Below, piece after piece: positions 8,925 to 64,000 of a stretch of 64,000 nt of DNA. Source of the stretch: Bacteroidales bacterium (lineage in GTDB: Bacteria > Bacteroidota > Bacteroidia > Bacteroidales > UBA4181); contig JAVBNI010000084.1 in NCBI GenBank assembly GCA_031551645.1, positions 917-64,916 of the forward strand, given 5' to 3'. Every line of letters begins with the position of its first letter. Within the stretch, counting starts at the first letter, position 1. The position numbers and the translations under genes were made by a program. The notes below the pieces were generated by a model. That model made no database searches. It worked only from the letters and a program-made list of their open reading frames with translations, and was not told where the DNA came from.

Positions 8925-8958
8925 TTTATTTTCTGTTTAATATTGGGATTTAACAATA

Positions 8959-9516: not shown

Positions 9517-9529
9517 ACTATCCTCCTCA

Positions 9530-22037: not shown

Positions 22038-22047
22038 GACGAATGTT

Positions 22048-23172: not shown

Positions 23173-23262
23173 TGATTGGCTTTATTAGTTTATTTATCAA
23201 TAAAATATTAGACAATATTATTTATATAATATATACGAATAATTCAATAAATAGTTTCAATC

Positions 23263-24417
23263 TTATAGTATTTCTTTAAACCCAATTTTCCGTCCCGATT
23301 TAAACCATTTCTGAGGATCAATTCCCAACCCTTGACGAAGTCCGCCAAGATCAGCTTCAGCCAGATACATATCCGGACTTGTGTTTAACTCTACAAGCAC
23401 TGGCCCTTCATCTGTCAAAGCGACATCCCAACCAACATAAGCTATTTCCCTCATTTTTAACGCATTTATTAAACAGAATTGTTTCAATTCTTCCCAACCG
23501 TTTATTTTTTTATCTTTAAATATAAAACCAGTATCCGGATGTTGTGTATATGTATTGTTTTTTACGGTATGTTCGTGTGCATATTCGTATAGCCGGCCAG
23601 ATTCAACATCAATGCTGAGAAAAAGCCCGCCCGAACCGGCATTGTCAACTTGAGCACCACCCTGCCCCATACGCAATACCGTATACAAAACCGATGGTTT
23701 CTGATCAACACACTTGGTGATCACACGTACTGTATTTATGGAATTAGGATATATTTCGGACATCTCTTTCGTTTGCACAATGCCTTCCTGCAGTATATAA
23801 TCTTCCTTTTTAAGATTTGTTCTCAAGTAATCAACACTTAATTTTTGACCATCATGAGTATAATAACCGTCTATTCCTTGTTTAAAAACAATAATCCCCA
23901 ATCCCCAAGAACCTTTATTGGGTTTTAAAAACAATTTATTGGATTTAATCTGTAATAATAATTTATCAAATTCATGATTGGAAATAAGGCTTCTTCGATG
24001 ATCATATATGTACCCACCATCATATTGTATGAAAATTTTCGGTTGTGCTTCCTGAAAACTATTAAACAACATGTATGAAAGAAACTTATTTTTGGCAATA
24101 TCAAAATATCCTTTACAACTATGCGGCCAAAAGATATACGCCATAAAATAATATGGGAGATAGTCGAGCATCTCCTGCATGGTCATTTTACAATCTTTAT
24201 GATACATGTCGAATTTAAAGTATTGGTACGGATAACAATTCCAATATTTTTCCAACGCTTTTATCTCTTTTGCGATTTGCCTGGCAGATTTTCTATTGGC
24301 ACACATGTCAAATCGTTCCATATCGACCCGAAACATCGATCTTATTTGCTTGTCTTGACGTCGAGCACTTACTTTACGCCACAGACGATAGACGTAATTA
24401 TTTATTGCTATTCTCAT
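23263..24417 (-). CDS. ATP-grasp amidoligase (paralog AG3, subgroup B)
   Basis: 384 aa. Motifs: YWNCYPYQYFKFDMY, FLKPNKGSWGLGIIVF, LRMGQGGAQVDNAGSGGL, HPDTG, GWDVALTDEGPVLVELN. Confidence 0.8.
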   Translation of the reverse strand: MRIAINNYVYRLWRKVSARRQDKQIRSMFRVDMERFDMCANRKSARQIAKEIKALEKYWNCYPYQYFKFDMYHKDCKMTMQEMLDYLPYYFMAYIFWPHSCKGYFDIAKNKFLSYMLFNSFQEAQPKIFIQYDGGYIYDHRRSLISNHEFDKLLLQIKSNKLFLKPNKGSWGLGIIVFKQGIDGYYTHDGQKLSVDYLRTNLKKEDYILQEGIVQTKEMSEIYPNSINTVRVITKCVDQKPSVLYTVLRMGQGGAQVDNAGSGGLFLSIDVESGRLYEYAHEHTVKNNTYTQHPDTGFIFKDKKINGWEELKQFCLINALKMREIAYVGWDVALTDEGPVLVELNTSPDMYLAEADLGGLRQGLGIDPQKWFKSGRKIGFKEIL

Positions 24418-24423
24418 ACCTTA

Positions 24424-25572
24424 TTAATATTTTCTTTTCCAAACTAAATACCAATCCTTTTTGTTAAACCATTTGTCTGGGTTAATATTAAAATCTTCTC
24501 TTAAGCCTCCCAACGGAGCTTGAACAATATCCATTTCCGGGCTGGCATTTAGCTCAACGATCAATGGACCGGATTCTGTCAATGCAATATCCCATCCGAT
24601 ATATTCAAGTTCTCTCATTTTAAGTATATTCCTTTCCATAAATTCACGGAACTCTTCCCATCCATCTAATGGATAATCATTAAATACTAAGCCAGTATCC
24701 GGGTGAGTCGTATAGTATTTTTGTTTTAACCCATAGTCAAAAGCTTTTTCTCCTAAACGTCCGGTTTTTTTATCGACATTAATAAATAATCCTCCTGCGG
24801 CAGCATTATCTACTTGAGTTCCCCCCCGCCCCATTCGTAAAACAGTATACATAATAATGGGGTTTTGGTTAATGCATTTAGTGATTACCCGTATAGTATT
24901 TACAGCATGCGGATATATATCTGACATACATCTGCGCTGAATTATACCTTCCTGAAGAATAAAATCACCGGGACGTGCAATTTGACGGATATATTCAGCA
25001 CTTAATTTTTGATTATGCTGATCTAAATAATTTTCATTTTCATCGCGATTAAATATGGTAATACCGGCTCCCCATGATCCCTTATTGGGTTTTAGGAATA
25101 GTTTGGCTGAATTAGTTTGTTGTAGCAGGCTCTCCACATCTTCATCTGTTATAATATTATTGTGTGTATCATACAAATTTCCATCATCACAAAGAAGCAA
25201 TATTTTTGCTTGATTTTCATGAAATTCAGAAAATAATGTGTAGCAAAAAAATTTATTTTTTATTAAATCAGAATATTGTTTATAACTATATGGCCAATAA
25301 AGATTCCCCATAAAATAATATGGCAAATAATTTTTCATATCATGCAGGTCTATTGCACAGTTTTTATGATACATGTCAAATCGAAAATACTGAAATGGAT
25401 AACAATTCCAATATTTTTTTAATACCTTTATTTCCTTTTTAATTTGGCCAGATGGTTTCTTCGAAACACATGCATTATACCTGTCAATATCTGTTTGATA
25501 CAAAGCCTGTATGTAACGACTTTGTCGCTGAAACATAATCTTTCGTATATAATTCACGATCTTCTTTCTCAT
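24424..25572 (-). CDS. ATP-grasp amidoligase (paralog AG4, subgroup B)
   Basis: 382 aa. Motifs: YWNCYPFQYFRFDMY, FLKPNKGSWGAGITIF, LRMGRGGTQVDNAAAGGL, GWDIALTESGPLIVELN. By eye it is closest to AG5. Confidence 0.8.
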   Translation of the reverse strand: MRKKIVNYIRKIMFQRQSRYIQALYQTDIDRYNACVSKKPSGQIKKEIKVLKKYWNCYPFQYFRFDMYHKNCAIDLHDMKNYLPYYFMGNLYWPYSYKQYSDLIKNKFFCYTLFSEFHENQAKILLLCDDGNLYDTHNNIITDEDVESLLQQTNSAKLFLKPNKGSWGAGITIFNRDENENYLDQHNQKLSAEYIRQIARPGDFILQEGIIQRRCMSDIYPHAVNTIRVITKCINQNPIIMYTVLRMGRGGTQVDNAAAGGLFINVDKKTGRLGEKAFDYGLKQKYYTTHPDTGLVFNDYPLDGWEEFREFMERNILKMRELEYIGWDIALTESGPLIVELNASPEMDIVQAPLGGLREDFNINPDKWFNKKDWYLVWKRKY

Positions 25573-25620
25573 TTTTGCGTATATTTTATATTATAAAAAC
25601 CTCAACCATAAAATTATTAA

Positions 25621-26769
25621 CTAATAATTTCTCACCCAATTTAAATGCCAATCATTTTTACTAAACCATTCACTTGGCTCAACATTAAAATTTTTGCGAA
25701 CACCACCTTTAGGGGCCTGTAAAAGTTCAGTGTCTGGCCGAGCATTTAATTCTACCAGTAATGGTCCCGAATCGGTTAACGCAATATCCCAACCGACATA
25801 GTTAAGTTCTCTCATTTTCAGAGCATTTCTTAAAACAAATTCTTTCAAGATATTCCAGCCATCAATTTGATAACCTTTAAATAGTATTCCAGTATCTGGA
25901 TGATGAGTATAGATATTTTGTTTCAGACCATGTTCAAAAGCATGTTCACCCAATCGACCAGTTTCTTTGTCCACATCTATAAAAATACCACCAGACGAAG
26001 CATTATCAATTTGTGCTCCACCTTTTCCCATATGTAACATTGTGAACAAAATTTCAGGTTTTTGATTGAAACAACTGGTCATAACACGTATCGTATTTAC
26101 TGCTTCCGGGTAAATGTCTGACATACTCTTACTCTGTATGATACCCTCTTGCAGAAAATAATCATCTTTAATCAGATGCTTGCGAATATATTCAGCATTT
26201 AATTGTTCATTATTATGATCCCTATAATCACCTGCATTATCACGTTTAAATACAATAATACCAATACCCCATGAACCTTTGTTGGGCTTAAAAAATAATT
26301 TTGGAGCAAATGTCTGTTTTAACAAAATTTCTACATTAGTGTCAGAGATAGGGTTATTATATATATCATATATGTAACTATCAACACATAAAAACAAAAT
26401 TTTGGCTTGATTTTCATTAAAGCCCTTAAATAAGGTATAACAAAAAAATTTATTTTGGATTAAATCATGGTATTGTTTATAACTATACACCCAAAAAAGA
26501 TGACCAAAAAAATAATATGATGTATAATCTTTCATTTCTTCTATGGATAAGGTACAATCGTTCCTATACATATCAAATCGGAAATATTGGAATGGATAAC
26601 TATTCCAATACTTTTGCAATATTTTGATTTCCTTTCTTATTTGGCGAGGTGATTTTTTTGAAGTACACATTTTATATCTATCCATGTCAACCTGAAAAAC
26701 AGGTAATACATAGGTGCTTTGTTCTAGAAATCGCTTTTTCCACCAATAATTCATTATTTTTTTCTTCAT
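25621..26769 (-). CDS. ATP-grasp amidoligase (paralog AG5, subgroup B)
   Basis: 382 aa. Motifs: YWNSYPFQYFRFDMY, FFKPNKGSWGIGIIVF, LHMGKGGAQIDNASSGGI, GWDIALTDSGPLLVELN. Confidence 0.8.
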   Translation of the reverse strand: MKKKIMNYWWKKRFLEQSTYVLPVFQVDMDRYKMCTSKKSPRQIRKEIKILQKYWNSYPFQYFRFDMYRNDCTLSIEEMKDYTSYYFFGHLFWVYSYKQYHDLIQNKFFCYTLFKGFNENQAKILFLCVDSYIYDIYNNPISDTNVEILLKQTFAPKLFFKPNKGSWGIGIIVFKRDNAGDYRDHNNEQLNAEYIRKHLIKDDYFLQEGIIQSKSMSDIYPEAVNTIRVMTSCFNQKPEILFTMLHMGKGGAQIDNASSGGIFIDVDKETGRLGEHAFEHGLKQNIYTHHPDTGILFKGYQIDGWNILKEFVLRNALKMRELNYVGWDIALTDSGPLLVELNARPDTELLQAPKGGVRKNFNVEPSEWFSKNDWHLNWVRNY

Positions 26770-26802
26770 GTCAGTTTAAATTTTAGTTTGATTTCTATTA
26801 TG

Positions 26803-27948
26803 TTATTTTTCAGCTAAAACAAATTCATCAGATTTCCAATATAAGGCAGGATTCCCTATAGCTAATACATCCCGTATTCCGCCATAACAATCTTGTATTG
26901 CTTCAACACTTGGACCTTCATTGATTTCTATTACAACCGGACCATTTACCGAATAAGCTATGTCCCAACCAAGAATTCGAATGGCCCGGAATTTTTCAGC
27001 ACATTTTGTTACAAATGTGATTATTTCGGACCAACATTGTAATTGATAACCCTTGAATTTGAATCGGGTATCAGGATGCTCATATACGTGTTCACGTTGC
27101 ACACCATAGGCAAAATCATTCAATATTCCAGTTTTTGCATCCACTTTTATGGTAACACCCCCTGAACTATAATTATCCACGTGTTTCCCTCCTTGTCCTA
27201 TACGCAACATTGACAACAAAATACGAATATTCCCCGGCTCATATTCCGTAAATATCCGGAATGTATTGACACTGCCAGCATATATCTGATTCATTTCTTC
27301 GCCTTGTTCAACGCCAGCTTGTACAACATATTTTTGATCATTGCAGTGTTGATAGAAAAAATCTGGATGAAAATAATTACCGTCATCATCTTTGTAACTT
27401 CCGTCTTGTTGCCGGTTGAATACAATAATTCCTTTACCTCCAACTCCAAAACATGGTTTGACAAATACCTTCACTCCTGCTATAGTGCGAATAACCTCTT
27501 CGAAATATTTTTCATCTGTTTTACCATTGTTCTTGTCAAAAAACATCTTTCGCTCATACATGAAAAGAAAAAGCGGCTGACCTAAACGATAATTATCCAG
27601 CAAAGCTGCCGTCAAAGCCTTATCATTACACAATATCCCATATTTTTTATATATACGAGGATAGAATAAATAAAAAGCAAAATAAAGAGGTATGTATTTT
27701 TTCATTTCTTCCATCGACAGAGGGGAGTCTTTGCGATACATATCATACCGATAGTACTGGTATGGGAAACATCCCCAATATTTTTTCAGATGGCACATTT
27801 CTTTCTTGATTTGTCCGCTTGTTTTCTTATCCGGACATTGCATATATCGTTCTAATGCCTCCTTAAAATAAATAGAATAATGCCCCCTAAGTCTTCTCTC
27901 GGAAGCTTTCTTCCAGAAGAAATAAAATTGTTTTTGAATAAATCCCAT
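26803..27948 (-). CDS. ATP-grasp amidoligase (paralog AG6, divergent subgroup C)
   Basis: 381 aa. Motifs: YWGCFPYQYYRYDMY, FVKPCFGVGGKGIIVF, LRIGQGGKHVDNYSSGGV, HPDT, LGWDIAYSVNGPVVIEIN. Confidence 0.78.
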   Translation of the reverse strand: MGFIQKQFYFFWKKASERRLRGHYSIYFKEALERYMQCPDKKTSGQIKKEMCHLKKYWGCFPYQYYRYDMYRKDSPLSMEEMKKYIPLYFAFYLFYPRIYKKYGILCNDKALTAALLDNYRLGQPLFLFMYERKMFFDKNNGKTDEKYFEEVIRTIAGVKVFVKPCFGVGGKGIIVFNRQQDGSYKDDDGNYFHPDFFYQHCNDQKYVVQAGVEQGEEMNQIYAGSVNTFRIFTEYEPGNIRILLSMLRIGQGGKHVDNYSSGGVTIKVDAKTGILNDFAYGVQREHVYEHPDTRFKFKGYQLQCWSEIITFVTKCAEKFRAIRILGWDIAYSVNGPVVIEINEGPSVEAIQDCYGGIRDVLAIGNPALYWKSDEFVLAEK

Positions 27949-32482: not shown

Positions 32483-34327
32483 TTATATAAAGTCATTTAA
32501 TGTTTTTCCATTTTTTCCCATTACCAACGTTTCCCACCAAAGTGCTATGGTTAATAAATTGAAATATTTGAATGCTTCAACATGTCTTTGCCAAAACCAT
32601 TTTCCAGAGTCTTTACAAAAAGAATCGTAATAAGTCAAAAACTTAGATACTTCATTTTTATCCAAAACTTCCGAACTAATATTCGAATTCAATATAACTT
32701 GTTTACATTTTTGGCGATATTCTTCTTTGGAAAAGAACAAAGGCAAAGGAGCAAAACCTCCTTGTTTTTTCTTAGCGGTCACTTCTTCAGGCAACTTTGT
32801 TTTGGTAGCCAATTTGTGTACATATTTGGCTACCCCTTTTCCGTCACATATTTCTTTAAAAGATCCCTTATGCTTATACTCACGAGGTAAAGTTTTTAAA
32901 AAACGAGTTACATCCAAACCCATGTAAGGGAAAGTGAGATGTTGTCCAAAATAATTTGCCAACATAGACGCTTTAAATAGGATAACTTGTTTCATTGTTT
33001 GTTGCATATCAATCAGAAAATTGCGATTCAGGAACAAATCATCAAATGATTCAAACGTTGAAGGGTAACTATCACTATAGCTAAACCCGGAAAACTGTAA
33101 AGGGGTTTCAACCATTTTTTTCAATTGCCGTCTTTCAAATCCAAAATCTTTACATTTTAGTGGATAGGCTATTGCATTGGTGTGAAATTTAATGCGGTAT
33201 AATGACGATGACTTATCTAATATGCCGGTATTTCCTATTTTATTGAATAGGTTTAACATCCAACTGACATGATTGTTTTTCAATTTATACCCTAATGCCA
33301 ATTCTCTGATCCCTGTTCCGTATAACTGATCATTCCCATCGCCGCCTAAAATCACGTCAATTCCATGTTGGGCAACCATGCGCATTACCATGAAATTGAC
33401 CATCAATCCGCTTTCCTGGAACGGATCACCTAAATGGCTAATTATTTCAGGAAAAAGGTCTATTTCGGAGCCATCAATTTCATATTCGAAATGTTCCGTA
33501 TCGAATTGCTCTGACATTAATTTAGCCAAAGGTAATTCACTCCATGGATTATCCTTAAATCCAATAGAAAAAGACTTTGCTTTACCAGTATATACTTCAC
33601 GTAAATTTACGATATTACCTCCCGAATCGTAACCTCCACTCAACAAAAGTGCTATATTTTTATGACCATTAATTCTCCGGTTTATCGCTTGCTGATGTAA
33701 CCGATTATATTCCAAGATTGTTTCATCCAAACTTAATGTTGATGTTCCGTGAGAGTGAATAAAATCGCTACACGTTAAAGTTTCTGTAATGGTTATTTTA
33801 TTGTCGTGATATACCAATAATTCACCACCAGCCAATTTTTTTACTCCTTTTAATGCAGTTTCCGGCGCTGGTATATAACCGAGATTCAAAAAGCATGCAA
33901 GAGCTTCAACATTCGGATCCAATCGAAAGTCTTTTATCTTCTTTACATCTTGTAACGAAGAACAAAAAAAACGGTCAGTATAATAAACAGGCGCTCCGGA
34001 TGAAGATATATCACGATATATGACCATTTTTCCCGGAGTTTGTACAATAATCGTGTATTGTCCGTCATATTCGGAAAAAGAAACATTCCCTAATTTTGCA
34101 TAAAGTTGACCAACAAGTTGAATACAGCTCTCAAAATTCAACTTGTTAACTTCAGCAACCTCTTTTCCATTATATATTTGTCCACACAGATAAAGAGTAA
34201 ACTTATCGTCAACATATGATAAAACTTTATCGCCCGTTATTATCGAAGCATTCTTATTATTAATAATCGCATCGATCGTTAATAACGCTTGAACTGGCTG
34301 TTGGTCAAAATTTCCTATAAATTCCAT
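32483..34327 (-). CDS. Asparagine synthase (AsnB) family adenylating enzyme lacking the N-terminal catalytic Cys
   Basis: 614 aa. The PP-loop IALLLSGGYDSG (SGGxDS) is in the synthetase domain. The N-terminus reads MEFIGNF instead of the MCG of class-II glutamine amidotransferases. Confidence 0.8.
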   Translation of the reverse strand: MEFIGNFDQQPVQALLTIDAIINNKNASIITGDKVLSYVDDKFTLYLCGQIYNGKEVAEVNKLNFESCIQLVGQLYAKLGNVSFSEYDGQYTIIVQTPGKMVIYRDISSSGAPVYYTDRFFCSSLQDVKKIKDFRLDPNVEALACFLNLGYIPAPETALKGVKKLAGGELLVYHDNKITITETLTCSDFIHSHGTSTLSLDETILEYNRLHQQAINRRINGHKNIALLLSGGYDSGGNIVNLREVYTGKAKSFSIGFKDNPWSELPLAKLMSEQFDTEHFEYEIDGSEIDLFPEIISHLGDPFQESGLMVNFMVMRMVAQHGIDVILGGDGNDQLYGTGIRELALGYKLKNNHVSWMLNLFNKIGNTGILDKSSSLYRIKFHTNAIAYPLKCKDFGFERRQLKKMVETPLQFSGFSYSDSYPSTFESFDDLFLNRNFLIDMQQTMKQVILFKASMLANYFGQHLTFPYMGLDVTRFLKTLPREYKHKGSFKEICDGKGVAKYVHKLATKTKLPEEVTAKKKQGGFAPLPLFFSKEEYRQKCKQVILNSNISSEVLDKNEVSKFLTYYDSFCKDSGKWFWQRHVEAFKYFNLLTIALWWETLVMGKNGKTLNDFI

Positions 34328-38761: not shown

Positions 38762-40834
38762 TTACTTATTTTTAGAAAAGCGACCAAGAATTTCTTCAAC
38801 AATATCTTTTTCCACATCATTTAAGATTAATTGAGGAACAATCCCGGAAACCTTCATAAAACTATCTAAAGCTGTTTGGTCCGCTTTGGTCCATTCCCTA
38901 TTTGCATCGCAAATCAAAAATGCAATATTGAATTGTTTGATTAAAGCGACAGGATAATCATTCAAAATCAATGAAGGTAATTCTAAAATGAGAATATCCG
39001 TATTGTTAAGTCGCTCAACAGGGACTAGATCCTCTGTGCGTGACTGGTAGAAAGCATTGTCTACTTTGTAACTTACGACAGACCAACTGCCTGAATCAAG
39101 GTAAGGAACAACAATCAAACACTTTTTCCCTTTCTGGATCAAACGCTCACAAAGCAAGTTGCTAATAGTTGTTTTACCTTCTGATGGGCGAGTACTAATA
39201 ATCAAAACACGTTGTTGGTGATGTTGATTATCCGTCAAATACAAATTTTTTAAAATAGTGTCGCAGAGGCCATTATTCACTTGTTCAGCATTATTATACG
39301 ATTGTAGGCGTTTAACATTAGGATATATTCCACCTATTCTCAACCCTGTTGCCTGCTCTGCCCGTTGTGGTGTTTTTATATTTTTATCAAAATATACCAT
39401 TAGAAAAATAACGGTAATAGGTACCATACCACCAATGACGCCACCTAACATTACCATAAATTTTCTTTTACTAGGAGTTGCAACCAATGGATAATTGGGT
39501 TTATCAATTATTTGTATCGCTGAAAGAGATTGTTGATCTTGTTGACGCATTTTACTTTGACTCAAATTCTGATATGTTGTTAAATATGCTTTTTCATTTA
39601 AATCTATTTCACGTTGAATCCGCTTCAAGGTATCTCCCAATGGAACGTATGCAGTATATTGACCGAGCGTTTCTGTTCTACGATTCTCTAGTGCTTTCAA
39701 ACGAGCTTTACTTTCTTCATAAATTACTATTCTATTAAAATATTCAGATGTGATTATATTGTTCGAGACCCCTGCAGACGGACTAACAGAATTCGCCTCT
39801 AAATCTTTTTTTAACTCTTCGCTTACCTGATTGATTTGTAACTGTAGATTGGCAATCTGTTCCGATGAAACATTATTCATTTCGGCTATGGTTAATTGGC
39901 TGGTTAATTGCCCTATTCGTTGCCTCTTTTCCATAATATCCTTATTTTTAAAACTTTGCGCCTGCGATCCACCAAGTTGACTTTCAATATTTTGTATACC
40001 GGCCTCCGTAGCCAGAATGGTTTCCCGCTCCCTATTAATCTGATTTAGAATAGCCTCTCGTTGTGCAATAATATTACCTGTTTGTATATCATAATTTACC
40101 AAATTATTTGCCTTTTTAAATTGTAAATATTTTTCTTCTGATAATTTTAACTGCTCTTTAGTTATCTTTAATTGTTCCTCAAAATATTCCACTAACTTAT
40201 CTGTTTGGCTTTCATTTAGCTTTCTGAAATTTTTTATACAAACATCAACAATTATTTCCAATGTTTTCTGACAAACACCTTGATCGTCACATGTATAAGA
40301 TAATGCAACTATATCGCTATTCATTACACGTTTTACCGTTATCCTTGATAAAGCTGAAATACTGTAATAACGTGCCGTGTAATTAACTTGGGAAACAAGA
40401 AATGGGTTAGTGTCTGATGCTGCTACAAGATTCTGATAGGTTTCTTCCTCAGTTGACCCAATAAGATTTTGGACACTATTTGGAACTTGCGAACGGACAA
40501 TTTCTAAATGTTCCGCAGAAATAATTTTAGGATCAGCGTTTTTAAGTACCATGTGCGATGCCATCAATCGTAACCCCACTTCCTTTAATGTCTCCCTACT
40601 TTTTACAATATTTAATAAATTGTCAAACGCATATCGGGCTGTCTTATCCGGGCCATATTGTGTTGCTGTTTCTGAAGAATATATTCCGGTATAGATAGAA
40701 GAAGTTGATTGGTATTCCTTAGGCATATTTTTTGTAAAAAGAACCACCATTAACGCTGTAAATATGACACATGCAATAATGATCCAACAACGCTTCAATA
40801 ATAATCTAATTAATTTTAAAAAATCGATATTCAT
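38762..40834 (-). CDS. Polysaccharide co-polymerase (Wzz/GumC-like) with a degenerate C-terminal P-loop (BY-kinase-like) domain
   Basis: It has an N-terminal TM, a long coiled-coil periplasmic region, a second TM (FMVMLGGVIGGMVPITVIFLMVYF) and a C-terminal Walker A (ISTRPSEGKTT). The Walker A' and B motifs are degenerate and there is no Tyr-rich tail. Confidence 0.75.
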   Translation of the reverse strand: MNIDFLKLIRLLLKRCWIIIACVIFTALMVVLFTKNMPKEYQSTSSIYTGIYSSETATQYGPDKTARYAFDNLLNIVKSRETLKEVGLRLMASHMVLKNADPKIISAEHLEIVRSQVPNSVQNLIGSTEEETYQNLVAASDTNPFLVSQVNYTARYYSISALSRITVKRVMNSDIVALSYTCDDQGVCQKTLEIIVDVCIKNFRKLNESQTDKLVEYFEEQLKITKEQLKLSEEKYLQFKKANNLVNYDIQTGNIIAQREAILNQINRERETILATEAGIQNIESQLGGSQAQSFKNKDIMEKRQRIGQLTSQLTIAEMNNVSSEQIANLQLQINQVSEELKKDLEANSVSPSAGVSNNIITSEYFNRIVIYEESKARLKALENRRTETLGQYTAYVPLGDTLKRIQREIDLNEKAYLTTYQNLSQSKMRQQDQQSLSAIQIIDKPNYPLVATPSKRKFMVMLGGVIGGMVPITVIFLMVYFDKNIKTPQRAEQATGLRIGGIYPNVKRLQSYNNAEQVNNGLCDTILKNLYLTDNQHHQQRVLIISTRPSEGKTTISNLLCERLIQKGKKCLIVVPYLDSGSWSVVSYKVDNAFYQSRTEDLVPVERLNNTDILILELPSLILNDYPVALIKQFNIAFLICDANREWTKADQTALDSFMKVSGIVPQLILNDVEKDIVEEILGRFSKNK

Positions 40835-40837
40835 ATC

Positions 40838-41551
40838 TTATTTTATAAGCTTAAAACCAATAATTTCTTCAAACAAAAGAATAGTCTTATTGAATTCATT
40901 TTTTTGTACTTCATAAGCATTTTTTGCCGATAAATATCTTTCATTGGCTTGTGTGAATGCATCTAAAGATGTCCGGTTATCAGCATAATCCTGTTTTGCC
41001 TGTTCGTATGACATGTTAGCTGATACAAACAATTCTAATCTCAAATCCAATGCATTGCGTTTGGATAGTAAATCATAGTACCCTGCAATAACAACCTCTC
41101 TAACTCCTTTTTCAACAGCATCCTTCCTTATTTTAGACTGTTCAATTTCAATTTTTGCTCCTTTCTGATTCAGACCATAATTGAATATACTGGAGATAGG
41201 TAATCTCATAGAAACACCTCCGGTAAACCTAATAGGGTCACTCGTAGTGGGTCCTTCGATCAATACTTCTTCACTAGTAAAATAATAATCTGATCCATAT
41301 CTTGCATTTGCTTGTAAATAAATCCAATGCATCCAATCACGATTAGTTGACTTCAAACTATATTCGCTTAATAATATCGAATTGTCCGCCATCCTCATTG
41401 CTGGCGAATAAATCAAAGCCGAATCGATCAGAGCCTGTAATGGCGGCAACGTCTTAGCAAAATCTTGTGTGTCATTATTAGCTGTTGTTTGGGCATACAA
41501 ATTATTCGAAAACAACAATTGAACAATGAATATGAAGAATATTATTCTCAT
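40838..41551 (-). CDS. Half-size TolC/OEP-like outer-membrane protein
   Basis: It has a signal peptide (MRIIFFIFIVQLLFSNNLYAQ). At 237 aa it has roughly the length and heptad character of a single outer-membrane-efflux-protein repeat, whereas TolC has two. Confidence 0.5.
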   Translation of the reverse strand: MRIIFFIFIVQLLFSNNLYAQTTANNDTQDFAKTLPPLQALIDSALIYSPAMRMADNSILLSEYSLKSTNRDWMHWIYLQANARYGSDYYFTSEEVLIEGPTTSDPIRFTGGVSMRLPISSIFNYGLNQKGAKIEIEQSKIRKDAVEKGVREVVIAGYYDLLSKRNALDLRLELFVSANMSYEQAKQDYADNRTSLDAFTQANERYLSAKNAYEVQKNEFNKTILLFEEIIGFKLIK

Positions 41552-41584: not shown

Positions 41585-42796
41585 TTATACATCTGATTTC
41601 TGAAACATAGCGGGAACAGTCCGTAGGAGCAACAACATATCTCCCCAGAATGAATTTTTATGCGCATACATGTTATCCAGAATGAATCTTTCTTCTTCCG
41701 ACATGAACCCGCCACGTCCGCGAAGCTCGACCTGCCAGAGGCCGGTGAGACCGGCTGCTGCACGGAACCGTCGCGACCATCGCGATTTGGTGATGGCATG
41801 CGCTTCATATACAGGTAACGGACGATTACCTACAATAGACATATCGCCTTTCAAAACATTGAATAACTGGGGTAATTCGTCGATACTGGTATTACGGATG
41901 AATCTTCCAACTTTGGTGATACGCGGATCATTCTGTATTTTTAGGAATGCCTTTTGAGCATTTTGTCGTTTAATCGCTAAACGTTCACAAATACGTTCGC
42001 CATCGTAATAATATGCCGGTGAACAAAGCTCTCCTTCAAGAAGCTTAGCACATACGGAACAAACTAACTCTACCTCATCATCCTGTGCTGCGTACTGGTT
42101 AAGATGAGCCACTTCCTTCAAACGCCTGTCAGCGTCGGAGTACATCGACCGGAATTTATAAAAATCAAAAGTATTGTAATTGGCACCTACACGCTTTGAT
42201 TTGTATATGGCATTACCTTTGGATTCCAATCGTATGGCTAATGCTGTTAAAAATAAAACCGGCGATAAAAGGATCAAAGCAAATGAAGCAACCGCAATAT
42301 CAAACGCACGTTTAATAAATGGCGTTTTGTATGGCCGCATAAACTCATCATCATGTTCTTTTTCTACATGTTGATGACCAGGACGTTTGTTCTTTAAATA
42401 AGATATTCGATCGTATATACGCTTATCATCTATCGGTTTCTGCAAACAACCATTGATACCTACATTCAACGCTTTTTGTTTTAACCGGTTTGTCGGCTGA
42501 GCAGCAACCAATACAAAAACATGTCCGTTATTTAGCCCTGTTTTTTGCATTTCCTGATACAAGGCAAGGCCATTTAAACCGGGTAAATTTGTTTCACAAA
42601 CAATGGCCTCAATGTCATGCCGACATTCCAAACCTTCAGGTGGACCAAAAGCTTTAAAAACACCATTAGTCATCCATTTGAAAGCCATCAACCCGTTGGG
42701 CTCATGGTGTACTTCAAACAGACTACTATTTCCAAGATTGTCAATGACCATCCGGTCACTGCCTATGTATAATATTTTTACTGGTGTTCGTTCCAT
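41585..42796 (-). CDS. Pseudo-receiver domain fused to a bacterial sugar transferase (initiating phosphoglycosyl transferase, WbaP/PglC type)
   Basis: Residues ~5-135 align to CheY-like receivers, but the phospho-acceptor is Glu (IVCETNLPGLNG) and the T87 equivalent is Ala. The C-terminal half has KRAFDIAVASFALILLSPV, YKFRSM, DPRITKVGRFIR and DELPQLFNVLKGDMSIVGNRPL. Confidence 0.85.
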   Translation of the reverse strand: MERTPVKILYIGSDRMVIDNLGNSSLFEVHHEPNGLMAFKWMTNGVFKAFGPPEGLECRHDIEAIVCETNLPGLNGLALYQEMQKTGLNNGHVFVLVAAQPTNRLKQKALNVGINGCLQKPIDDKRIYDRISYLKNKRPGHQHVEKEHDDEFMRPYKTPFIKRAFDIAVASFALILLSPVLFLTALAIRLESKGNAIYKSKRVGANYNTFDFYKFRSMYSDADRRLKEVAHLNQYAAQDDEVELVCSVCAKLLEGELCSPAYYYDGERICERLAIKRQNAQKAFLKIQNDPRITKVGRFIRNTSIDELPQLFNVLKGDMSIVGNRPLPVYEAHAITKSRWSRRFRAAAGLTGLWQVELRGRGGFMSEEERFILDNMYAHKNSFWGDMLLLLRTVPAMFQKSDV

Positions 42797-42804
42797 TTAT
42801 AAGA

Positions 42805-43212
42805 TCAAATACCTATCCGGCTTAAGAACCGTTCCCTGACTTCAAGACGACGTTTAATACGGGCGATCACTTCACTCGGATTAAACGGCTTGACAACATA
42901 ATCTTCGGCTCCCAACTCGAAACATCTGATTTTGTCTTTACTCCACTCTCTTCCCGAAAGAATCATAATCGGGATATCATCAAAAAAACCGCTACTCTTA
43001 ATCCTTTCCAAAAATTCAAAGCCGTTTAACTCAGGCATTACCAAATCGCAAATGATTAAATCCGGGAAATTACCTGCTTCCAGATAATCAAGCCCCTCCT
43101 GACCATTAGACAAAGAGATAACGTCAAACTCCTGTTTGAGTGTATTTTCAATAATGAATCGTATACTTTTCTCGTCGTCTATTACTAAGATTCTCTTTTT
43201 GGCCATAACCAA
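42805..43212 (-). CDS. Single-domain response regulator (CheY-like receiver)
   Basis: 135 aa with all canonical receiver residues: ILVIDDE, IICDLVMPELNG, IMILSG, VVKPF. Confidence 0.9.
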   Translation of the reverse strand: MVMAKKRILVIDDEKSIRFIIENTLKQEFDVISLSNGQEGLDYLEAGNFPDLIICDLVMPELNGFEFLERIKSSGFFDDIPIMILSGREWSKDKIRCFELGAEDYVVKPFNPSEVIARIKRRLEVRERFLSRIGI

Positions 43213-43242
43213 ATCATTCTTTAAAATGAAGTCTATCCATTA

Positions 43243-43250
43243 CAAATTTA
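43243..43250 (-). promoter_or_regulatory. Candidate -7 box (TAAATTTG) for the polysaccharide locus
   Basis: Plus-strand caaattta equals minus-strand TAaaTTTG, 31 nt upstream of the receiver-gene ATG. A second match lies at 43408-43415. No good -33 TTTG was found. Confidence 0.3.
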
Positions 43251-43583
43251 ATGCCTCAATCTTTTATACGAAGAAGGCTCTAAAAGGTTCTATATTTAGA
43301 TTGATTTTTTCCAACTTTGACCAACATTGCTTTTTCTTTGACGTACGTACTCAGATCGTACTTAAAACAACGATATTCTAAATTTTGTGCAATTAAAAAA
43401 TAATTGTCAAAATTATATATTTCCTTGATATTAATTTTATAATTTGCTATGATGAGACGATTTTATCGATCTTTTTCCTAAATTTGTTCCATCTGTTTCA
43501 AATATAATAGATAGAAGTTATTGTCTGGCGGATTTGCCCAGATGGTATTTTAATTTATTGAAAATTAGCTTAATATATTAAAT

Positions 43584-61342: not shown

Positions 61343-64000
61343 ATGAGAGTTTTATATTATAAACATATATTGTTTTTTTTACTTGCTGTTTCATTCAACT
61401 GCTCTGCACAAGTTGAAACAAAACGCTGGTGGAATCTTGAAGCGACACTTGCTACGGATAGGGCGGTTTTTTGTACCGACGATGAAATCAAACCTATGGA
61501 TAACCTTCTTGTAAATGCGCGAGAAGCGCGGGATAATGCAGCTAAGCTGCATATATTCCTTGACATCATCCGCACTTGTCAGGAAGAAGGCACGATATAC
61601 CGGGCTATACAATATGCCGACAGTGCAATGGCTAATGCCCTCAGGTTAAATGATTCACTTTCCATTTGCCGTATTTATGTCGCTTCGGTCTATCATATGG
61701 ATTTGTGTGGCAATCCCGGTGCAATGCTAACAGAAGCCAGGTTATCCCAAAGATGGATGCCACATTCGGCAACAGGAACAATAGATGAATTCAAAGTATG
61801 GGCGTCGATGGGCGATGCCTTTCTAAAACTCTTACGTTATGACGAAGCCGAGAAAGCATATCGTAAAGCGTGGGACGTTTCGGATCATCTTGACAACCGA
61901 AAAGCCCCGGGATATGCGTATTTGAATATTGGCAAAGCCTTATATGGTGCCGGGAAAATAGATAAAGCGATAAATGCATACCGTCAAGGTGTTAGTGTAT
62001 TCAAAGCTCTGGGTGATACGTTAAATTGTTGCGTACTCTATAGCCAGATAGCCTTATCGTATTCCGACCTGGGAATGCGCAACAAACAATTAGAATATCT
62101 GCGTTTAACGTTAAACACAAGCGAACACCTGCACAATTACCTGCAGCGGGCAGCAGTTTATCGTATCCTTGGTGCTTTCTACAGGGAACAGAATGACAGT
62201 ACACTTGCTACCGAATTTTACCGGAAAGCCATCGAAGCCTTCCAAAAAATTCCAAACAAACACATCCCGACATTGGGTGACAGTCATAGTGATATGGCCG
62301 ATTTTTACAATTACCTGGGAGACAAAGAAAAAGCATTGTATTACCAAAGGCTTTCCATCAAAAGTTACCAGGATTTACCAAGAACCGTTACACTGATGAG
62401 CTATAGATTGGGGTACCTACACTTCCAGTATGGACAACCTGACTCGGCCTTATATTATTTCAACGATGCACACAACAGAGCGCTCATCTTGAATGATCCT
62501 CGTTTGCTGGCCACCAGTTGTAAAGGATTAGCCGATTACTATCGCTCTACAGGCAATATTTCACAAGCAATTGGTTTTGCTGAAAAATCATATGAAAACG
62601 CAAAAAAGATACAGTTACTCGAATTGGTTCGCGAACTGTCGGGAATGCTGGGCGACATGTATGCCGAAACCGGCAGATATCAACAAGCATATGCATTACA
62701 GGCACGGCACAGATCGCTGACAGACTCCCTTACCCTGGCCGAGAGTAACAGGGATGCGTCACGCCTGCAAGCACAAATTGAACTTGCCAATGAGGAAAAC
62801 AAAATGAGCATGCAGATTACGGAACAACAACGACGCATCCAAACACAATGGATTTTTTCAATACTGTTAGTCTGTATATTGATCCTTTTGCTCGTATTGG
62901 TTGTTACAGCACTGAAAAATTATAAACAGCGGCAAAAGGTCAACATGCAATTGAGCAAGCAGAAGGAAGAGCTGGCCATTGCCAATGAAGAATATGCCGC
63001 CATCAATGAAGAACTGAATCAGAAAAACGAGCAATTAATGGACGAATTCGCCCGTCGTATGGAAGTATTACAACAGTTGGCCGACAGCGAAAGTAAAATT
63101 CTCAGCTTCATCCAACAATCCTCCGAGGGTATTATGATGTTTGACGAAACAGGCCGTGTAATGGAATGGAACCACACATTGGAACTGATGACGGGACTTT
63201 CGCATGATGAAGTTATGGGCAAATACGAATGGGATATCATATGGAATCATTTTCCTGAAAAGGAACGTACCCCACAACTTCTGGACGCACTGAAACAATC
63301 GCGGCAGGACTATATCAAGGGCGGTAATAAACAAGACCCGTTGATCGAAGAAATGGAGTTATTCATACATGGGCAAATCCGCTATATGCAGGCATCCATA
63401 TTTCCTATAGAAGCTGCTGGTACTTGCTTCTTTGGACGCATCCTGCGCGATATCACCGAGCAAAAATTAACCGATATGGAGTTGGAAAAGTATCAGACCC
63501 AATTGGAACAAATGGTCGAAATAAAAACCCATGAACTGACCGTAGCCAAGGAAAAAGCGGAAGAGTCGGATAAACTCAAATCGGCCTTTCTGGCCAATAT
63601 GTCGCACGAGATACGTACTCCGCTCAATGGAATTGTCGGTTTTCTTAATTTTCTCGGTTCGGACAACCTGCCGGCCGGCCGCCGCAAGGAATATGCCAGT
63701 ATCGTCAATAACAGCAGCGAACAGTTAGTCAAACTGATAGACGACATCATAGACGTAGCCAAAATAGAAGCCGGACAAATGGACATACATCCCATACCGT
63801 TCCGTCTTAACCACCTGATGTACGAACTACAGATATTTTTCGAAACATACCTGAAAAGCAGCCAAAAGGGGCATGTTGAAATGATACTTGACGATAGCGG
63901 GTTTATCGACTCATGTATTGCTTTGGTCGACCCGGTACGTTTACGGCAGGTGCTGAACAACCTGATAGGAAATGCTATCAAATTCACCGACAAAGGCTTC
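61343..64000 (+). CDS. Sensor histidine kinase with an extracytoplasmic TPR-like domain, TM, coiled coil, PAS and HisKA/HATPase (3' partial)
   Basis: Not in the ORF track because it runs off the window. My manual translation from ATG 61343 stays open to 64000 (886 codons). It has a signal peptide (LFFLLAVSFNCSAQ), TPR-like repeats (AEKAYRKA, AINAYRQG, ATEFYRKAIEAF), a TM (WIFSILLVCILILLLVLVV), a PAS region, the H-box FLANMSHEIRTPLNG and the N-box LNNLIGNAIKFT. Confidence 0.85.
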   Translation, partial: MRVLYYKHILFFLLAVSFNCSAQVETKRWWNLEATLATDRAVFCTDDEIKPMDNLLVNAREARDNAAKLHIFLDIIRTCQEEGTIYRAIQYADSAMANALRLNDSLSICRIYVASVYHMDLCGNPGAMLTEARLSQRWMPHSATGTIDEFKVWASMGDAFLKLLRYDEAEKAYRKAWDVSDHLDNRKAPGYAYLNIGKALYGAGKIDKAINAYRQGVSVFKALGDTLNCCVLYSQIALSYSDLGMRNKQLEYLRLTLNTSEHLHNYLQRAAVYRILGAFYREQNDSTLATEFYRKAIEAFQKIPNKHIPTLGDSHSDMADFYNYLGDKEKALYYQRLSIKSYQDLPRTVTLMSYRLGYLHFQYGQPDSALYYFNDAHNRALILNDPRLLATSCKGLADYYRSTGNISQAIGFAEKSYENAKKIQLLELVRELSGMLGDMYAETGRYQQAYALQARHRSLTDSLTLAESNRDASRLQAQIELANEENKMSMQITEQQRRIQTQWIFSILLVCILILLLVLVVTALKNYKQRQKVNMQLSKQKEELAIANEEYAAINEELNQKNEQLMDEFARRMEVLQQLADSESKILSFIQQSSEGIMMFDETGRVMEWNHTLELMTGLSHDEVMGKYEWDIIWNHFPEKERTPQLLDALKQSRQDYIKGGNKQDPLIEEMELFIHGQIRYMQASIFPIEAAGTCFFGRILRDITEQKLTDMELEKYQTQLEQMVEIKTHELTVAKEKAEESDKLKSAFLANMSHEIRTPLNGIVGFLNFLGSDNLPAGRRKEYASIVNNSSEQLVKLIDDIIDVAKIEAGQMDIHPIPFRLNHLMYELQIFFETYLKSSQKGHVEMILDDSGFIDSCIALVDPVRLRQVLNNLIGNAIKFTDKGF

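What the first reader, a model, noticed from the sequence alone, without database searches (positions are those of the whole stretch)
41585..43212. Polysaccharide initiation gated by a receiver pair: a canonical CheY-like protein next to a pseudo-receiver::phosphoglycosyltransferase fusion with a Cys-rich insert
Seen: the first gene of the locus (42805-43212) is a stand-alone receiver with every canonical residue (DD, D in ICDLVMPELNG, S, K). The second gene fuses a receiver-like domain to a WbaP/PglC-type sugar transferase. In that domain the phospho-acceptor Asp is replaced by Glu (IVCETNLPGLNG vs DxxMPxxDG). The conserved Thr/Ser is Ala (VLVAAQ), only one Asp of the N-terminal acidic pair remains (IGSD), and the Lys is kept (LQKPID). 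The catalytic half also has an extra ~40 residues between YKFRSM and DPRIT, and these contain CSVC...C...C. Established: a Glu at the acceptor position is a classic phosphomimetic or pseudo-receiver feature, and PglC/WbaP-type enzymes commit Und-P to polymer synthesis. Inference: initiation of this polymer may be controlled post-translationally. One route is heterodimerisation of the phosphorylatable single-domain receiver with the locked pseudo-receiver on the transferase. The four-Cys insert could be a metal or redox module. No kinase is encoded in the locus.
Basis: partly seen in the sequence, partly recalled or inferred. Interest (0 to 1): 0.62.

Follow-up and report, generated by a model that had tools for sequence, protein, structure and literature searches.

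The report
Split receiver switch on a sugar-priming enzyme
Two adjacent genes encode a normal phosphorylatable signalling protein and a polysaccharide-initiating enzyme that carries a dead copy of the same signalling domain. The pair is conserved across Bacteroidota, and some relatives have it collapsed into a single protein, so polymer synthesis is probably switched on or off directly at its first enzymatic step.

Summary
Gene 1 (42805-43212, minus strand) is a canonical single-domain receiver of the OmpR/PhoB type. Gene 2 (41585-42796, minus strand) is a receiver-fold domain with Glu at the acceptor site, fused to a PglC-like small monotopic phosphoglycosyl transferase (PGT). That enzyme carries a 71-residue loop holding C-x2-C-x8-C-x11-C.

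- The free receiver sits directly upstream of the fusion in 78 of 78 evaluable Bacteroidota loci. One of those copies is broken by an IS66 element.
- The fused domain is a true pseudo-receiver. The catalytic residues are not conserved across the family. The only strongly conserved polar residues lie on strand beta5 and helix alpha5, on the usual receiver dimer face.
- Relatives exist in which an intact receiver is fused straight to the PGT. One has a receiver 82% identical to gene 1 and a catalytic half 71% identical to gene 2. All 6 such loci that could be evaluated lack a free receiver.

This supports direct receiver control of the PGT, as shown in 2025 for Myxococcus EpsW/EpsZ. Docking on the pseudo-receiver, the sign of regulation and metal binding by the four cysteines remain untested. 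I rate it a new variant of a known kind.

The parts
42805..43212 (-). Stand-alone canonical receiver (single-domain response regulator of OmpR/PhoB type). It is the first gene of the cluster. The probable start is the ATG at 43206. Key codons: D12/D13 at 43174-43179, D56 at 43045-43047, S86 at 42955-42957, K108 at 42889-42891.
   Evidence: Pfam Response_reg 94.9 bits, full length. The best PDB relatives are OmpR/PhoB-family receiver domains. In 76 orthologs the quintet is kept in 75-76, except the first acidic position, which is D in 55 and E in 20. Coordinates checked.
42386..42781 (-). Pseudo-receiver domain of the fusion protein (residues 6-137). Key codons: E68 at 42593-42595 (acceptor position), A98 at 42503-42505, K120 at 42437-42439. 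Positions 12 and 13 are Gly and Ser.
   Evidence: Pfam Response_reg 39 bits. Alignments. AlphaFold2 (beta-alpha)5 fold with pLDDT 80-93. Foldseek matches to CheY-like structures. The family shows no conservation of catalytic residues.
42620..42661 (-). A 14-residue insertion (VFKAFGPPEGLECR, residues 46-59) in the alpha2-beta3 loop of the pseudo-receiver. It is specific to the close clade.
   Evidence: These columns are gaps in 96% of the 75 genome-locus homologs. They are conserved (F47, F50) in the 53-row alignment A1 of close homologs and lie in a lower-confidence loop of the model.
42320..42385 (-). Low-complexity linker (residues 138-159) between the pseudo-receiver and the membrane helix.
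   Evidence: pLDDT below 50 for residues 139-152. The linker ends in the conserved motif Y156-K157-x-P159.
42221..42319 (-). Re-entrant membrane helix of the monotopic PGT (residues 160-192), with the KRxFD and Ser-Pro motifs.
   Evidence: Single long helix H160-192. K162, R163, F165 and P179 are invariant and D166 is at least 90% conserved. The region superposes on PglC.
41603..42313 (-). PglC-type (small monotopic) phosphoglycosyl transferase catalytic domain (residues 162-398). The Asp-Glu dyad D306-E307 lies at 41876-41881.
   Evidence: Pfam Bac_transf 195 bits. Foldseek match to C. concisus PglC 8g1n/8e37 with TM 0.80-0.81 on the target. The DE dyad is kept in 149 of 150 representatives.
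41930..42142 (-). A 71-residue insert between YKFRSM and DPRIT (residues 219-289). Its C-x2-C-x8-C-x11-C core (C246, C249, C258, C270) lies at 41987-42061.
   Evidence: Each Cys is kept in 116 of 117 close homologs. In 60 loci the spacing is C-x2-C-x5-8-C-x11-C with an invariant 11-residue last spacer. The model shows a beta-hairpin at 261-270 followed by a helix, pLDDT 65-81. The insert has no PDB sequence match.
43213..43583 (.). A 371-bp AT-rich intergenic region between the receiver gene and the divergent epimerase gene. It is the presumed promoter region of the cluster.
   Evidence: ORF map. Three TAnnTTTG motifs on the minus strand at 43506, 43415 and 43250. This is a consensus match only and was not tested.
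38762..41551 (-). Conserved downstream partners of the module: a 237-aa single-repeat OEP/TolC-like protein (40838-41551) and a 690-aa Wzz/GNVR chain-length/co-polymerase protein (38762-40834).
   Evidence: Pfam OEP 72.5 bits, Wzz 32.5 bits and GNVR 24.6 bits. They occupy the same positions (+1, +2) in 55 and 51 of 80 genome loci.

Best explanation
The two genes form a split receiver switch that controls the first committed step of a Wzx/Wzy-type polysaccharide pathway.

Gene 1 is a phosphorylatable single-domain response regulator of the OmpR/PhoB type. In this genome its kinase is encoded elsewhere. In other lineages a hybrid histidine kinase with an Hpt domain lies next door.

Gene 2 is a PglC-like small monotopic PGT. 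Its N-terminal domain is a paralogous receiver that has lost its phosphorylation chemistry.

Shown here:
- the domain identities
- the loss of catalytic residues in the fused domain
- the strict co-occurrence of the two genes
- the existence of one-protein versions in which an intact receiver replaces the pseudo-receiver and the free receiver is absent

Inferred:
- The phosphorylated free receiver binds the enzyme directly, most likely by pairing its alpha4-beta5-alpha5 face with the same face of the pseudo-receiver. This would be a heterodimer descended from a receiver homodimer.
- The binding changes PGT activity. By analogy with EpsW/EpsZ it is probably an activation.
- The pseudo-receiver is therefore a built-in docking adaptor.
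- The four-Cys loop is most likely a structural zinc site that stiffens a lineage-specific loop of the catalytic domain. It is not the switch.
For: Identities.

Co-occurrence:
- A 119-165 aa receiver lies directly upstream on the same strand in 77 of 78 evaluable loci (80 genome loci plus the window, spanning Bacteroidales, Flavobacteriales, Sphingobacteriales, Chitinophagales and Cytophagales). Most gaps run from -52 to +66 nt, and the largest is 143 nt.
- The 78th locus carries the same gene split by an IS66 element.

The free receiver keeps D13, D56, S86 and K108 in 75-76 of 76 orthologs; position 12 is D in 55 and E in 20.

The fused domain is degenerate:
- The acceptor position is E41/Q13/D10/N4 of 75 in genome loci, and E51/D46/N12 of 150 in cluster representatives.
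- Only 3 of 150 representatives keep a complete quintet.
- Its only strongly conserved polar residues are D/E116 (130 of 150) and R/K130 (114 of 150), on beta5 and alpha5. They align to REC D104/R118 and PhoB D101/R115.
- The alpha4-beta5-alpha5 face with conserved charged pairs is the dimer interface of OmpR/PhoB receivers (PMC2586830).

Rosetta-stone fusions:
- P0384 is 82% identical to gene 1 over residues 1-132 and 71% identical to the catalytic half of gene 2. P0363 is 76% and 71%. Both give full-length Response_reg plus Bac_transf.
- 57 of 115 further relatives scored at least 100 bits against the receiver profile, and 52 of those align to a complete quintet.
- Their receiver domains hit the free partner receivers best: 91-242 bits, against 45-76 for PhoB.

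Context test:
- 6 of 6 evaluable intact-receiver fusions have no free receiver nearby.
- 4 of 4 near-intact fusions with Glu at the acceptor have a 125-127 aa receiver immediately upstream.

Kinases: a histidine kinase lies within 10 kb in 30 of the 80 related loci, and about 13 are directly adjacent. The adjacent ones tested by Pfam are hybrid kinases, several with an Hpt domain.

Precedent: EpsW~P binds and stimulates the PGT EpsZ (PMC12802240).
Against: - No physical interaction or structural model of the pair was obtained.
- Small monotopic PGTs are reported to work as monomers (PMC12802240, discussion), so the dimer-promoting mechanism of EpsW/EpsZ cannot simply be transferred.
- In this window's own clade the beta5 acidic residue is often Gly (G116 here; G59/D48 of 117). 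At most one of the two symmetric salt bridges could therefore form.
- The identification of the beta5 Asp and alpha5 Arg as the central salt-bridge pair rests on my reading of PMC2586830 plus memory.
- The co-occurrence counts are not phylogenetically independent.
- No kinase is linked to the pair in this genome.
- The inter-domain geometry of the model is uncertain (pTM 0.48).
Confidence: 0.6

Rival explanations
1. The free receiver does control the PGT directly, but it contacts the catalytic domain or linker rather than the pseudo-receiver. The pseudo-receiver then has another job, such as auto-inhibition, self-association, or binding of a different ligand or partner.
For: In the EpsW/EpsZ models the receiver touches the catalytic domain as well as the accessory domain (PMC12802240). 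In P0384 and P0363 the receiver works without any pseudo-receiver. The window clade has lost the beta5 acidic residue.
Against: The pseudo-receiver is retained with a conserved core, plus D/E116 and R/K130 on the dimer face, across a whole phylum. It is lost exactly where the intact receiver takes its place in the polypeptide. That pattern fits a tethering or docking role.
Confidence: 0.2
2. The free receiver acts elsewhere and is merely co-transcribed. Possible targets are the co-polymerase/export proteins or transcription, or it may serve as a phosphate sink. The pseudo-receiver would work independently of it.
For: Single-domain receivers often have several targets or act as sinks (general knowledge). 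NtrC-like activators and hybrid kinases lie near some loci. No interaction data exist.
Against: Orthologs of this very receiver are covalently fused to the PGT catalytic half in relatives. The free receiver is absent in 6 of 6 loci where the fused receiver is intact, and present in all 82 evaluable loci where it is not, counting the one copy split by IS66.
Confidence: 0.1
3. The Cys-rich insert is a redox or metal sensor that gates catalysis, so the enzyme would integrate two signals. On this view it is not a passive structural zinc site.
For: The four cysteines have fixed spacing. They sit in a loop of the catalytic domain between two conserved catalytic-core motifs.
Against: In genome-locus homologs, 18 of 75 lack the cysteines, and most of these keep an insert of similar length. 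Among 150 representatives, 56 have a long insert without the motif and 36 have a short WbaP-like loop. The enzyme family therefore works without them, which is typical of structural zinc sites. The insert has no similarity to any solved sensor module.
Confidence: 0.15

Closest known systems
EpsW / EpsZ of Myxococcus xanthus (PMC12802240, mBio 2025)
   Same: A phosphorylatable single-domain response regulator controls a polysaccharide pathway post-translationally by acting directly on the initiating monotopic PGT. It is encoded with the polysaccharide genes.
   Different: [quoted passage not shown] EpsW is fed by a CheA-type kinase, and the proposed mechanism is promotion of an EpsZ dimer. Here the enzyme is a small PglC-like PGT carrying a pseudo-receiver. 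The receiver is of the OmpR/PhoB type and scores far below the EpsW model cut-off (73.6 against 200 bits).
Receiver-domain fusions of small monotopic PGTs (O'Toole, Imperiali and Allen 2021, as cited in PMC12802240; the paper itself was not available)
   Same: The domain architecture is the same: Response_reg followed by Bac_transf.
   Different: As far as I could see, that work records the architecture only. It does not report the degenerate nature of the fused domain in most members, its obligatory pairing with a free canonical receiver, the intact one-protein variants, or the four-Cys insert. Four literature searches aimed at these features found nothing on them.
PglC (Campylobacter concisus, PDB 8g1n/8e37) and WbaP (8t53)
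   Same: The re-entrant helix, the Asp-Glu dyad and the catalytic fold match (Foldseek TM 0.80-0.81 on PglC).
   Different: PglC has no N-terminal domain, and from memory only about 13 residues where this protein has 71. WbaP has a membrane bundle and an accessory domain, and in relatives with a WbaP-like short loop this span is about 30 residues. The protein scores below every NCBIfam equivalog cut-off.
OmpR/PhoB-family receiver domains and their alpha4-beta5-alpha5 dimers (PMC2586830)
   Same: Gene 1 is most similar to these receivers: RR02, CovR/VicR, PhoP, AdeR and PhoB at E 1e-24 to 1e-20. It keeps the GAxDY...KPFNPxEL...R pattern.
   Different: It has no DNA-binding domain. The proposed partner is a degenerate paralog fused to an enzyme rather than a second identical receiver. 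Heterodimers are reported as rare in that family.
Pseudo-receivers with Glu at the acceptor site (plant pseudo-response regulators such as TOC1/PRRs) and the orthodox/atypical regulator heterodimer BldM-WhiI (both from memory, not checked here)
   Same: A receiver fold that cannot be phosphorylated serves as a protein-interaction module. In BldM-WhiI an atypical receiver pairs with a related regulator.
   Different: Those are transcription or clock proteins. Here the pseudo-receiver is attached to a membrane enzyme.
CapM / CapB of Staphylococcus aureus (as summarised in PMC12802240)
   Same: Post-translational control of a small monotopic PGT.
   Different: That control works by tyrosine phosphorylation from a BY-kinase. 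The co-polymerase in this locus has only a degenerate P-loop region and no tyrosine-rich tail (and direct reading of the sequence).

Membership tests
Response regulator receiver (Pfam PF00072): gene 1 | Profile match above the curated cut-off over the whole domain | tested here: met
   94.9 bits against a 30.2-bit cut-off, profile 1-111/111.
Response regulator receiver (Pfam PF00072): gene 1 | Catalytic quintet: acidic pair, acceptor Asp, Thr/Ser and Lys | tested here: met
   D12, D13, D56, S86 and K108 align to CheY D12/D13/D57/T87/K109. D13, D56, S86 and K108 are kept in 75-76 of 76 orthologs, and position 12 is D in 55 and E in 20.
Response regulator receiver (Pfam PF00072): gene 1 | Actual phosphorylation by a kinase or a small-molecule donor | not testable with these tools
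   No kinase lies in the locus. Adjacent hybrid kinases occur in other lineages.
Receiver: N-terminal domain of gene 2 | (beta-alpha)5 receiver fold | tested here: met
   Pfam 39 bits against a 30.2-bit cut-off. The AlphaFold2 secondary-structure order is b1-a1...b5-a5 with pLDDT 80-93. Foldseek TM is about 0.8 and rmsd 2.4-2.9 A to CheY, PmrA and DesR.
Receiver: N-terminal domain of gene 2 | Phospho-acceptor Asp | tested here: not met
   Glu68 occupies the position. It is E in 111 of 117 close homologs.
Receiver: N-terminal domain of gene 2 | Metal-binding acidic pair and conserved Thr/Ser | tested here: not met
   Gly12 and Ser13 by strand register, and Ala98. Lys120 is kept. The domain is therefore a pseudo-receiver and not a functional receiver.
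Monotopic phosphoglycosyl transferase (Pfam PF02397 Bac_transf; small, PglC-like) | Profile match and fold | tested here: met
   195 bits against a 27-bit cut-off. Foldseek match to PglC at E 1.7e-11 with TM 0.80 on the target.
Monotopic phosphoglycosyl transferase (Pfam PF02397 Bac_transf; small, PglC-like) | Asp-Glu catalytic dyad and re-entrant helix with a Ser-Pro break, and no membrane helix bundle | tested here: met
   D306-E307 are invariant. There is a single hydrophobic helix at 160-192 containing LLSP.
Monotopic phosphoglycosyl transferase (Pfam PF02397 Bac_transf; small, PglC-like) | Sugar-1-phosphate transfer to undecaprenyl phosphate, and donor specificity | not testable with these tools
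   All NCBIfam equivalog models score below their cut-offs: WbaP 204.8/403, WcaJ 190.8/410.75 and EpsZ 158.1/800.
EpsW (NCBIfam NF041866, exopolysaccharide response regulator) | Score at or above the equivalog cut-off | tested here: not met
   73.6 bits against a 200-bit cut-off. It ranks below PhoB, VanR, AdeR and other models. The protein works like EpsW at best and is not an ortholog.
Zinc-ribbon or treble-clef type Cys4 site (the insert) | Four Cys with conserved spacing on a knuckle plus hairpin | tested here: met
   C-x2-C-x5-8-C-x11-C in 60 loci. The model shows a hairpin at 261-270 followed by a helix.
Zinc-ribbon or treble-clef type Cys4 site (the insert) | Sequence relationship to a known metal-binding module | tested here: not met
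   A profile of 30 inserts searched against the PDB matched only the flanking WbaP helix, at E of about 2. No separate Pfam family was reported for the insert.
Zinc-ribbon or treble-clef type Cys4 site (the insert) | Bound metal | not testable with these tools

The most novel reading that the evidence does not exclude
Bacteroidota, and at least one metagenome-assembled genome labelled Chlorobiales, use a previously undescribed 'split response regulator'. On this reading an ancestral receiver::PGT enzyme duplicated its receiver. The fused copy decayed into a docking pseudo-receiver, with Asp-to-Glu as the first step. A free phosphorylatable copy now switches the enzyme in trans through a receiver/pseudo-receiver heterodimer. 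This would be a general, genetically tractable, post-translational gate on undecaprenyl-phosphate commitment, with natural one-protein and two-protein versions available for comparison.
Probability: 0.4. Interest if true: 0.72.

Novelty: new variant of a known kind. Interest (0 to 1): 0.6.

Why it matters
How cells decide when to spend scarce undecaprenyl phosphate on a capsule or exopolysaccharide is largely unknown outside transcriptional control. Only one case of direct response-regulator control of an initiating PGT has been shown (Myxococcus, 2025), and that paper asked whether the receiver domains seen on small PGTs do something similar.

This locus belongs to a large family spread across the phylum. 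At least 150 clusters at 50% identity have the roughly 400-aa architecture, and the family includes cultured Flavobacterium, Pedobacter, Mucilaginibacter, Cyclobacterium, Marinifilum and Bacteroides species. Evolution has already done the informative experiments in this family:
- a free receiver plus a dead receiver on the enzyme
- an intact receiver on the enzyme with no free receiver
- near-intact Glu intermediates
- an IS66 knock-out of the free receiver

The mechanism is therefore directly testable in tractable organisms. It would extend pseudo-receiver biology to a membrane enzyme.

Tried and rejected
- AlphaFold on the receiver joined to the fusion protein by a Gly-Ser linker, with 19 paired orthologs (alignment A2). 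No complex model was obtained.
- Foldseek against the afdb50 library was not available.
- The O'Toole 2021 paper could not be read by DOI or by PMC id. I rely on how PMC12802240 summarises it.
- Four literature searches for the module found nothing: Bac_transf with Response_reg; pseudo-receiver with undecaprenyl; Flavobacterium, sugar transferase and response regulator; receiver domain, sugar transferase and Bacteroidetes.
- P0001, the 100%-identical database protein, could not be traced to a contig. The source organism is known only as a Bacteroidales or Bacteroidia relative, from the names of homologs.
- A profile search of the Cys4 insert against the PDB gave no meaningful hit.
- Rfam found nothing in the window.
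- I considered and dropped direct-coupling or mirror-tree analysis of receiver/pseudo-receiver pairs. About 71 pairs are too few, and shared phylogeny would dominate.
- I first took high scores against my receiver-family HMM as proof of a specific relationship. I then noticed that CheY (included in the seed) and PhoB also score 110-121 bits. I replaced that argument with ranked phmmer hits, in which the partner receivers outrank PhoB, CheY and all other regulators in the loci.
- 'A kinase in the locus' was rejected after Pfam scans of all large ORFs.
Full report
**1. What is in the sequence**

The interval holds two minus-strand ORFs separated by 8 nt: 42805-43212 (135 aa) and 41585-42796 (403 aa). 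They open a same-strand run of about 24 genes that extends down to 18109. The run has low GC content, 0.31-0.38 against 0.40-0.46 in the flanks.

The rest of the cluster is a Wzx/Wzy-type polysaccharide locus:
- a 237-aa OEP/TolC-like protein
- a 690-aa Wzz/GNVR co-polymerase
- a Wzy_C polymerase
- GT2 and GT4 glycosyltransferases
- an AsnB-like amidotransferase
- a hexapeptide acyltransferase
- a Wzx flippase
- six tandem ATP-grasp paralogs
- a pyruvyl transferase

**2. Gene 1 is a canonical receiver**

- It matches Pfam Response_reg over the full length at 94.9 bits.
- Its nearest solved relatives are receiver domains of OmpR/PhoB-family regulators, at E 1e-24 to 1e-20.
- D12, D13, D56, S86 and K108 align with CheY D12/D13/D57/T87/K109.
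- It is not an EpsW ortholog: 73.6 bits against a 200-bit cut-off.
- Orthologs start at MAK/MKK, so the real start is probably the ATG at 43206.

**3. Gene 2 is a pseudo-receiver fused to a small monotopic PGT**

- Pfam gives Response_reg at 39 bits (residues 59-131) and Bac_transf at 195 bits (residues 162-398).
- An AlphaFold2 model built on 53 homologs has mean pLDDT 74.8. It shows a (beta-alpha)5 domain at residues 6-137 with pLDDT 80-93, a disordered linker, one long hydrophobic helix at 160-192 and the catalytic domain.
- Foldseek matches the C-terminal half to C. concisus PglC (TM 0.80 on the target). It matches the N-terminal domain to CheY, PmrA, DesR and PorX receivers (TM about 0.8, rmsd 2.4-2.9 A).
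- Residue equivalences from the PleD alignment and an HMM alignment: E68 = acceptor Asp, A98 = Thr/Ser, C117 = the aromatic switch residue, K120 = Lys.
- Strand beta1 is too divergent for the HMM. By register, positions 12 and 13 are Gly and Ser, with Asp14 one residue later. The acidic pair is therefore lost rather than half kept.
- The catalytic Asp-Glu dyad (D306-E307) and the KRxFD and Ser-Pro helix motifs are conserved.
- The NCBI-derived protein P0001 (388 aa) starts at Met16 and so truncates beta1.

**4. The insert**

- YKFRSM and DPRIT are 71 residues apart.
- In 150 cluster representatives this span falls into three classes: a short WbaP-like loop of mostly about 30 residues (36 members), a long loop without the Cys motif (56) and a long loop with four Cys (58).
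- Where present, the spacing is C-x2-C-x5-8-C-x11-C, and the last spacer is invariant.
- The model places a hairpin at 261-270 and then a helix, at moderate confidence.
- A profile of 30 inserts finds nothing in the PDB except the flanking WbaP helix.
- This fits a structural Cys4 zinc site grafted onto a variable loop. Lineages without the cysteines show that it is not required for the enzyme family.

**5. The pair is a conserved module**

I analysed the best 80.
- Of the 81 loci (the 80 plus the window), 78 could be evaluated. In 77, a 119-165 aa receiver lies immediately upstream on the same strand.
- In the 78th (L017) the same gene is split by an IS66 element.
- The downstream order OEP-like, co-polymerase, flippase/polymerase is also conserved.
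- The carriers span Bacteroidales, Flavobacteriales, Sphingobacteriales, Chitinophagales and Cytophagales.
- In 76 partner receivers, D13, D56, S86, K108 and the KPFNPxEL segment are essentially invariant; position 12 is D in 55 and E in 20.

**6. The fused domain really is a pseudo-receiver**

- Across the 75 genome homologs the acceptor position is E41, Q13, D10, N4, Y3. Lys120 is kept in 17.
- Among 150 representatives the acceptor is E51, D46, N12. Only 3 keep all five catalytic residues.
- The hydrophobic core is conserved, plus two polar residues: an acidic residue on beta5 (position 116; D/E in 130 of 150) and an Arg/Lys on alpha5 (position 130; 114 of 150).
- These two align with D104 and R118 of the free receiver and with PhoB D101 and R115.
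- The alpha4-beta5-alpha5 face, with its network of conserved charged pairs, is the dimer interface of OmpR/PhoB receivers (PMC2586830). My assignment of these two residues to the central pair rests on that text plus memory.
- In the window's own clade, position 116 is often Gly.
- Lys120 is retained mainly when residue 68 is acidic: 41 of 147 against 4 of 77. This is not corrected for phylogeny. It gives weak support to a Glu-Lys mimic of the phospho-Asp-Lys contact.
- A 14-residue loop insertion (residues 46-59) is specific to the close clade.

**7. One-protein versions exist**

- Scoring N-terminal domains against a profile of the partner receivers separates degenerate domains (0-55 bits) from a minority of intact ones.
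- A search seeded with one intact member (P0200, Tellurirhabdus rosea) returned 115 further relatives. Of these, 57 scored at least 100 bits against the receiver profile, and 52 of those align to a complete D/E-D-D-S-K quintet. They include Emticicia oligotrophica, Leadbetterella, Sediminitomix and Spirosomataceae.
- Their receiver domains hit the free partner receivers best (91-242 bits), ahead of PhoB (45-76), CheY and every other regulator in the loci.
- P0384 and P0363 are the most telling. Residues 1-132 are 82% and 76% identical to the window's gene 1, and the rest is 71% identical to the catalytic half of gene 2. No pseudo-receiver lies between the two parts. In close relatives, then, the free receiver has been joined directly to the enzyme and the pseudo-receiver discarded.

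**8. Context test**

- All 6 evaluable intact-receiver fusions (P0217, P0267, P0249, P0200, P0282, P0363) lack a free receiver in their flanks.
- Several of them sit beside a divergent NtrC-like activator, FIST, H-NOX or hybrid HK-Hpt genes.
- All 4 near-intact fusions with Glu at the acceptor (quintets DDESK, DDETK, DHETK and ENESK) have a 125-127 aa receiver immediately upstream.
- Together with the 78 loci above, this is 0 of 6 against 82 of 82. The nominal Fisher p is about 2e-9, but the cases are not phylogenetically independent.
- The Glu intermediates suggest that Asp-to-Glu was the first step in the decay of the fused copy.

**9. Kinases**

- The locus has none. The window's only histidine kinase is a TPR-PAS-HisKA ORF cut by the window end, 18 kb away.
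- A kinase lies within 10 kb in 30 of the 80 related loci, and about 13 are directly adjacent. The adjacent ones scanned by Pfam are PAS hybrid kinases, several with an Hpt domain. This is consistent with a phosphorelay onto the free receiver.

**10. Mechanism**

Shown: a phosphorylatable receiver and a PGT with a dead receiver are an obligate gene pair. The receiver can substitute in cis for the dead domain.

Inferred:
- The phosphorylated receiver acts directly on the enzyme, as EpsW~P does on EpsZ (PMC12802240).
- It most likely docks on the pseudo-receiver through the alpha4-beta5-alpha5 faces. The pseudo-receiver would be a docking adaptor that becomes dispensable once the receiver is tethered.
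- The sign of regulation is unknown. Activation is a guess by analogy.
- Small PGTs are reported to be monomers, so the dimer-promotion mechanism may not apply.

**11. Novelty**

The fusion architecture (O'Toole et al. 2021, via PMC12802240) and receiver control of a PGT (PMC12802240) are both known. My searches turned up no description of the following:
- the pseudo-receiver character of the fused domain
- its obligate free partner
- the one-protein and two-protein alternation
- the Cys4 loop

I rate the finding a new variant of a known kind, with interest about 0.6.

Noticed in passing
window 20904-27948 (-): Six tandem paralogous genes of 374-384 aa each, all 'sugar-transfer associated ATP-grasp' (PF14397). 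They lie inside the polysaccharide locus next to an AsnB-like amidotransferase (32483-34327). This suggests several amino-acid or amide decorations of the repeat unit.
   Followed up: partly
window 38762-41551 (-): A half-size (237 aa, single repeat) OEP/TolC-like protein and a 690-aa Wzz/GNVR co-polymerase directly follow the PGT. The same order is kept in 55 and 51 of 80 related loci. The co-polymerase C-terminus has a P-loop (STRPSEGKTT), degenerate Walker A'/B motifs and no tyrosine tail. No Wza/Poly_export gene was seen, so export through the outer membrane may use this small OEP protein.
   Followed up: partly
window 42752-42796 (-): The database protein P0001, identical to this gene, is 388 aa and starts at Met16. 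This cuts off strand beta1 (KILYIG), which all homologs conserve. The 403-aa start is the better call.
   Followed up: yes
L017 7256-9924: In one Bacteroidales metagenome-assembled genome the partner receiver gene is split by an IS66 element (TnpB at 7852-8196, transposase at 8265-9737). This is a natural knock-out of the free receiver, while the pseudo-receiver::PGT gene stays intact.
   Followed up: yes
L082, L084, L086, L091 (flanks of intact receiver::PGT genes): One-protein versions in Cytophagales often sit next to a divergent NtrC-like sigma-54 activator, a FIST protein, an H-NOX (HNOB) haem-NO sensor or a PAS hybrid kinase, in one case with an Hpt domain. A Pedobacter hybrid kinase beside the two-gene module (L058) also carries an HNOBA domain. 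This hints that NO or redox sensing feeds the switch in some lineages.
   Followed up: partly
window 61343-64000 (+): A TPR-PAS-HisKA histidine kinase ORF runs off the window end. It is the only kinase in the window, lies 18 kb from the locus, and nothing links it to the locus.
   Followed up: partly
window 42620-42661 (-): A 14-residue insertion (VFKAFGPPEGLECR) lies in the alpha2-beta3 loop of the pseudo-receiver. It is found only in the closest clade, where F47 and F50 are nearly invariant. Its function is unknown.
   Followed up: partly
L089/L090 (P0325): The two-gene module with a DDETK near-intact Glu form also occurs in a metagenome-assembled genome labelled Chlorobiales. The module may therefore extend beyond Bacteroidota within the FCB group.
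   Followed up: no
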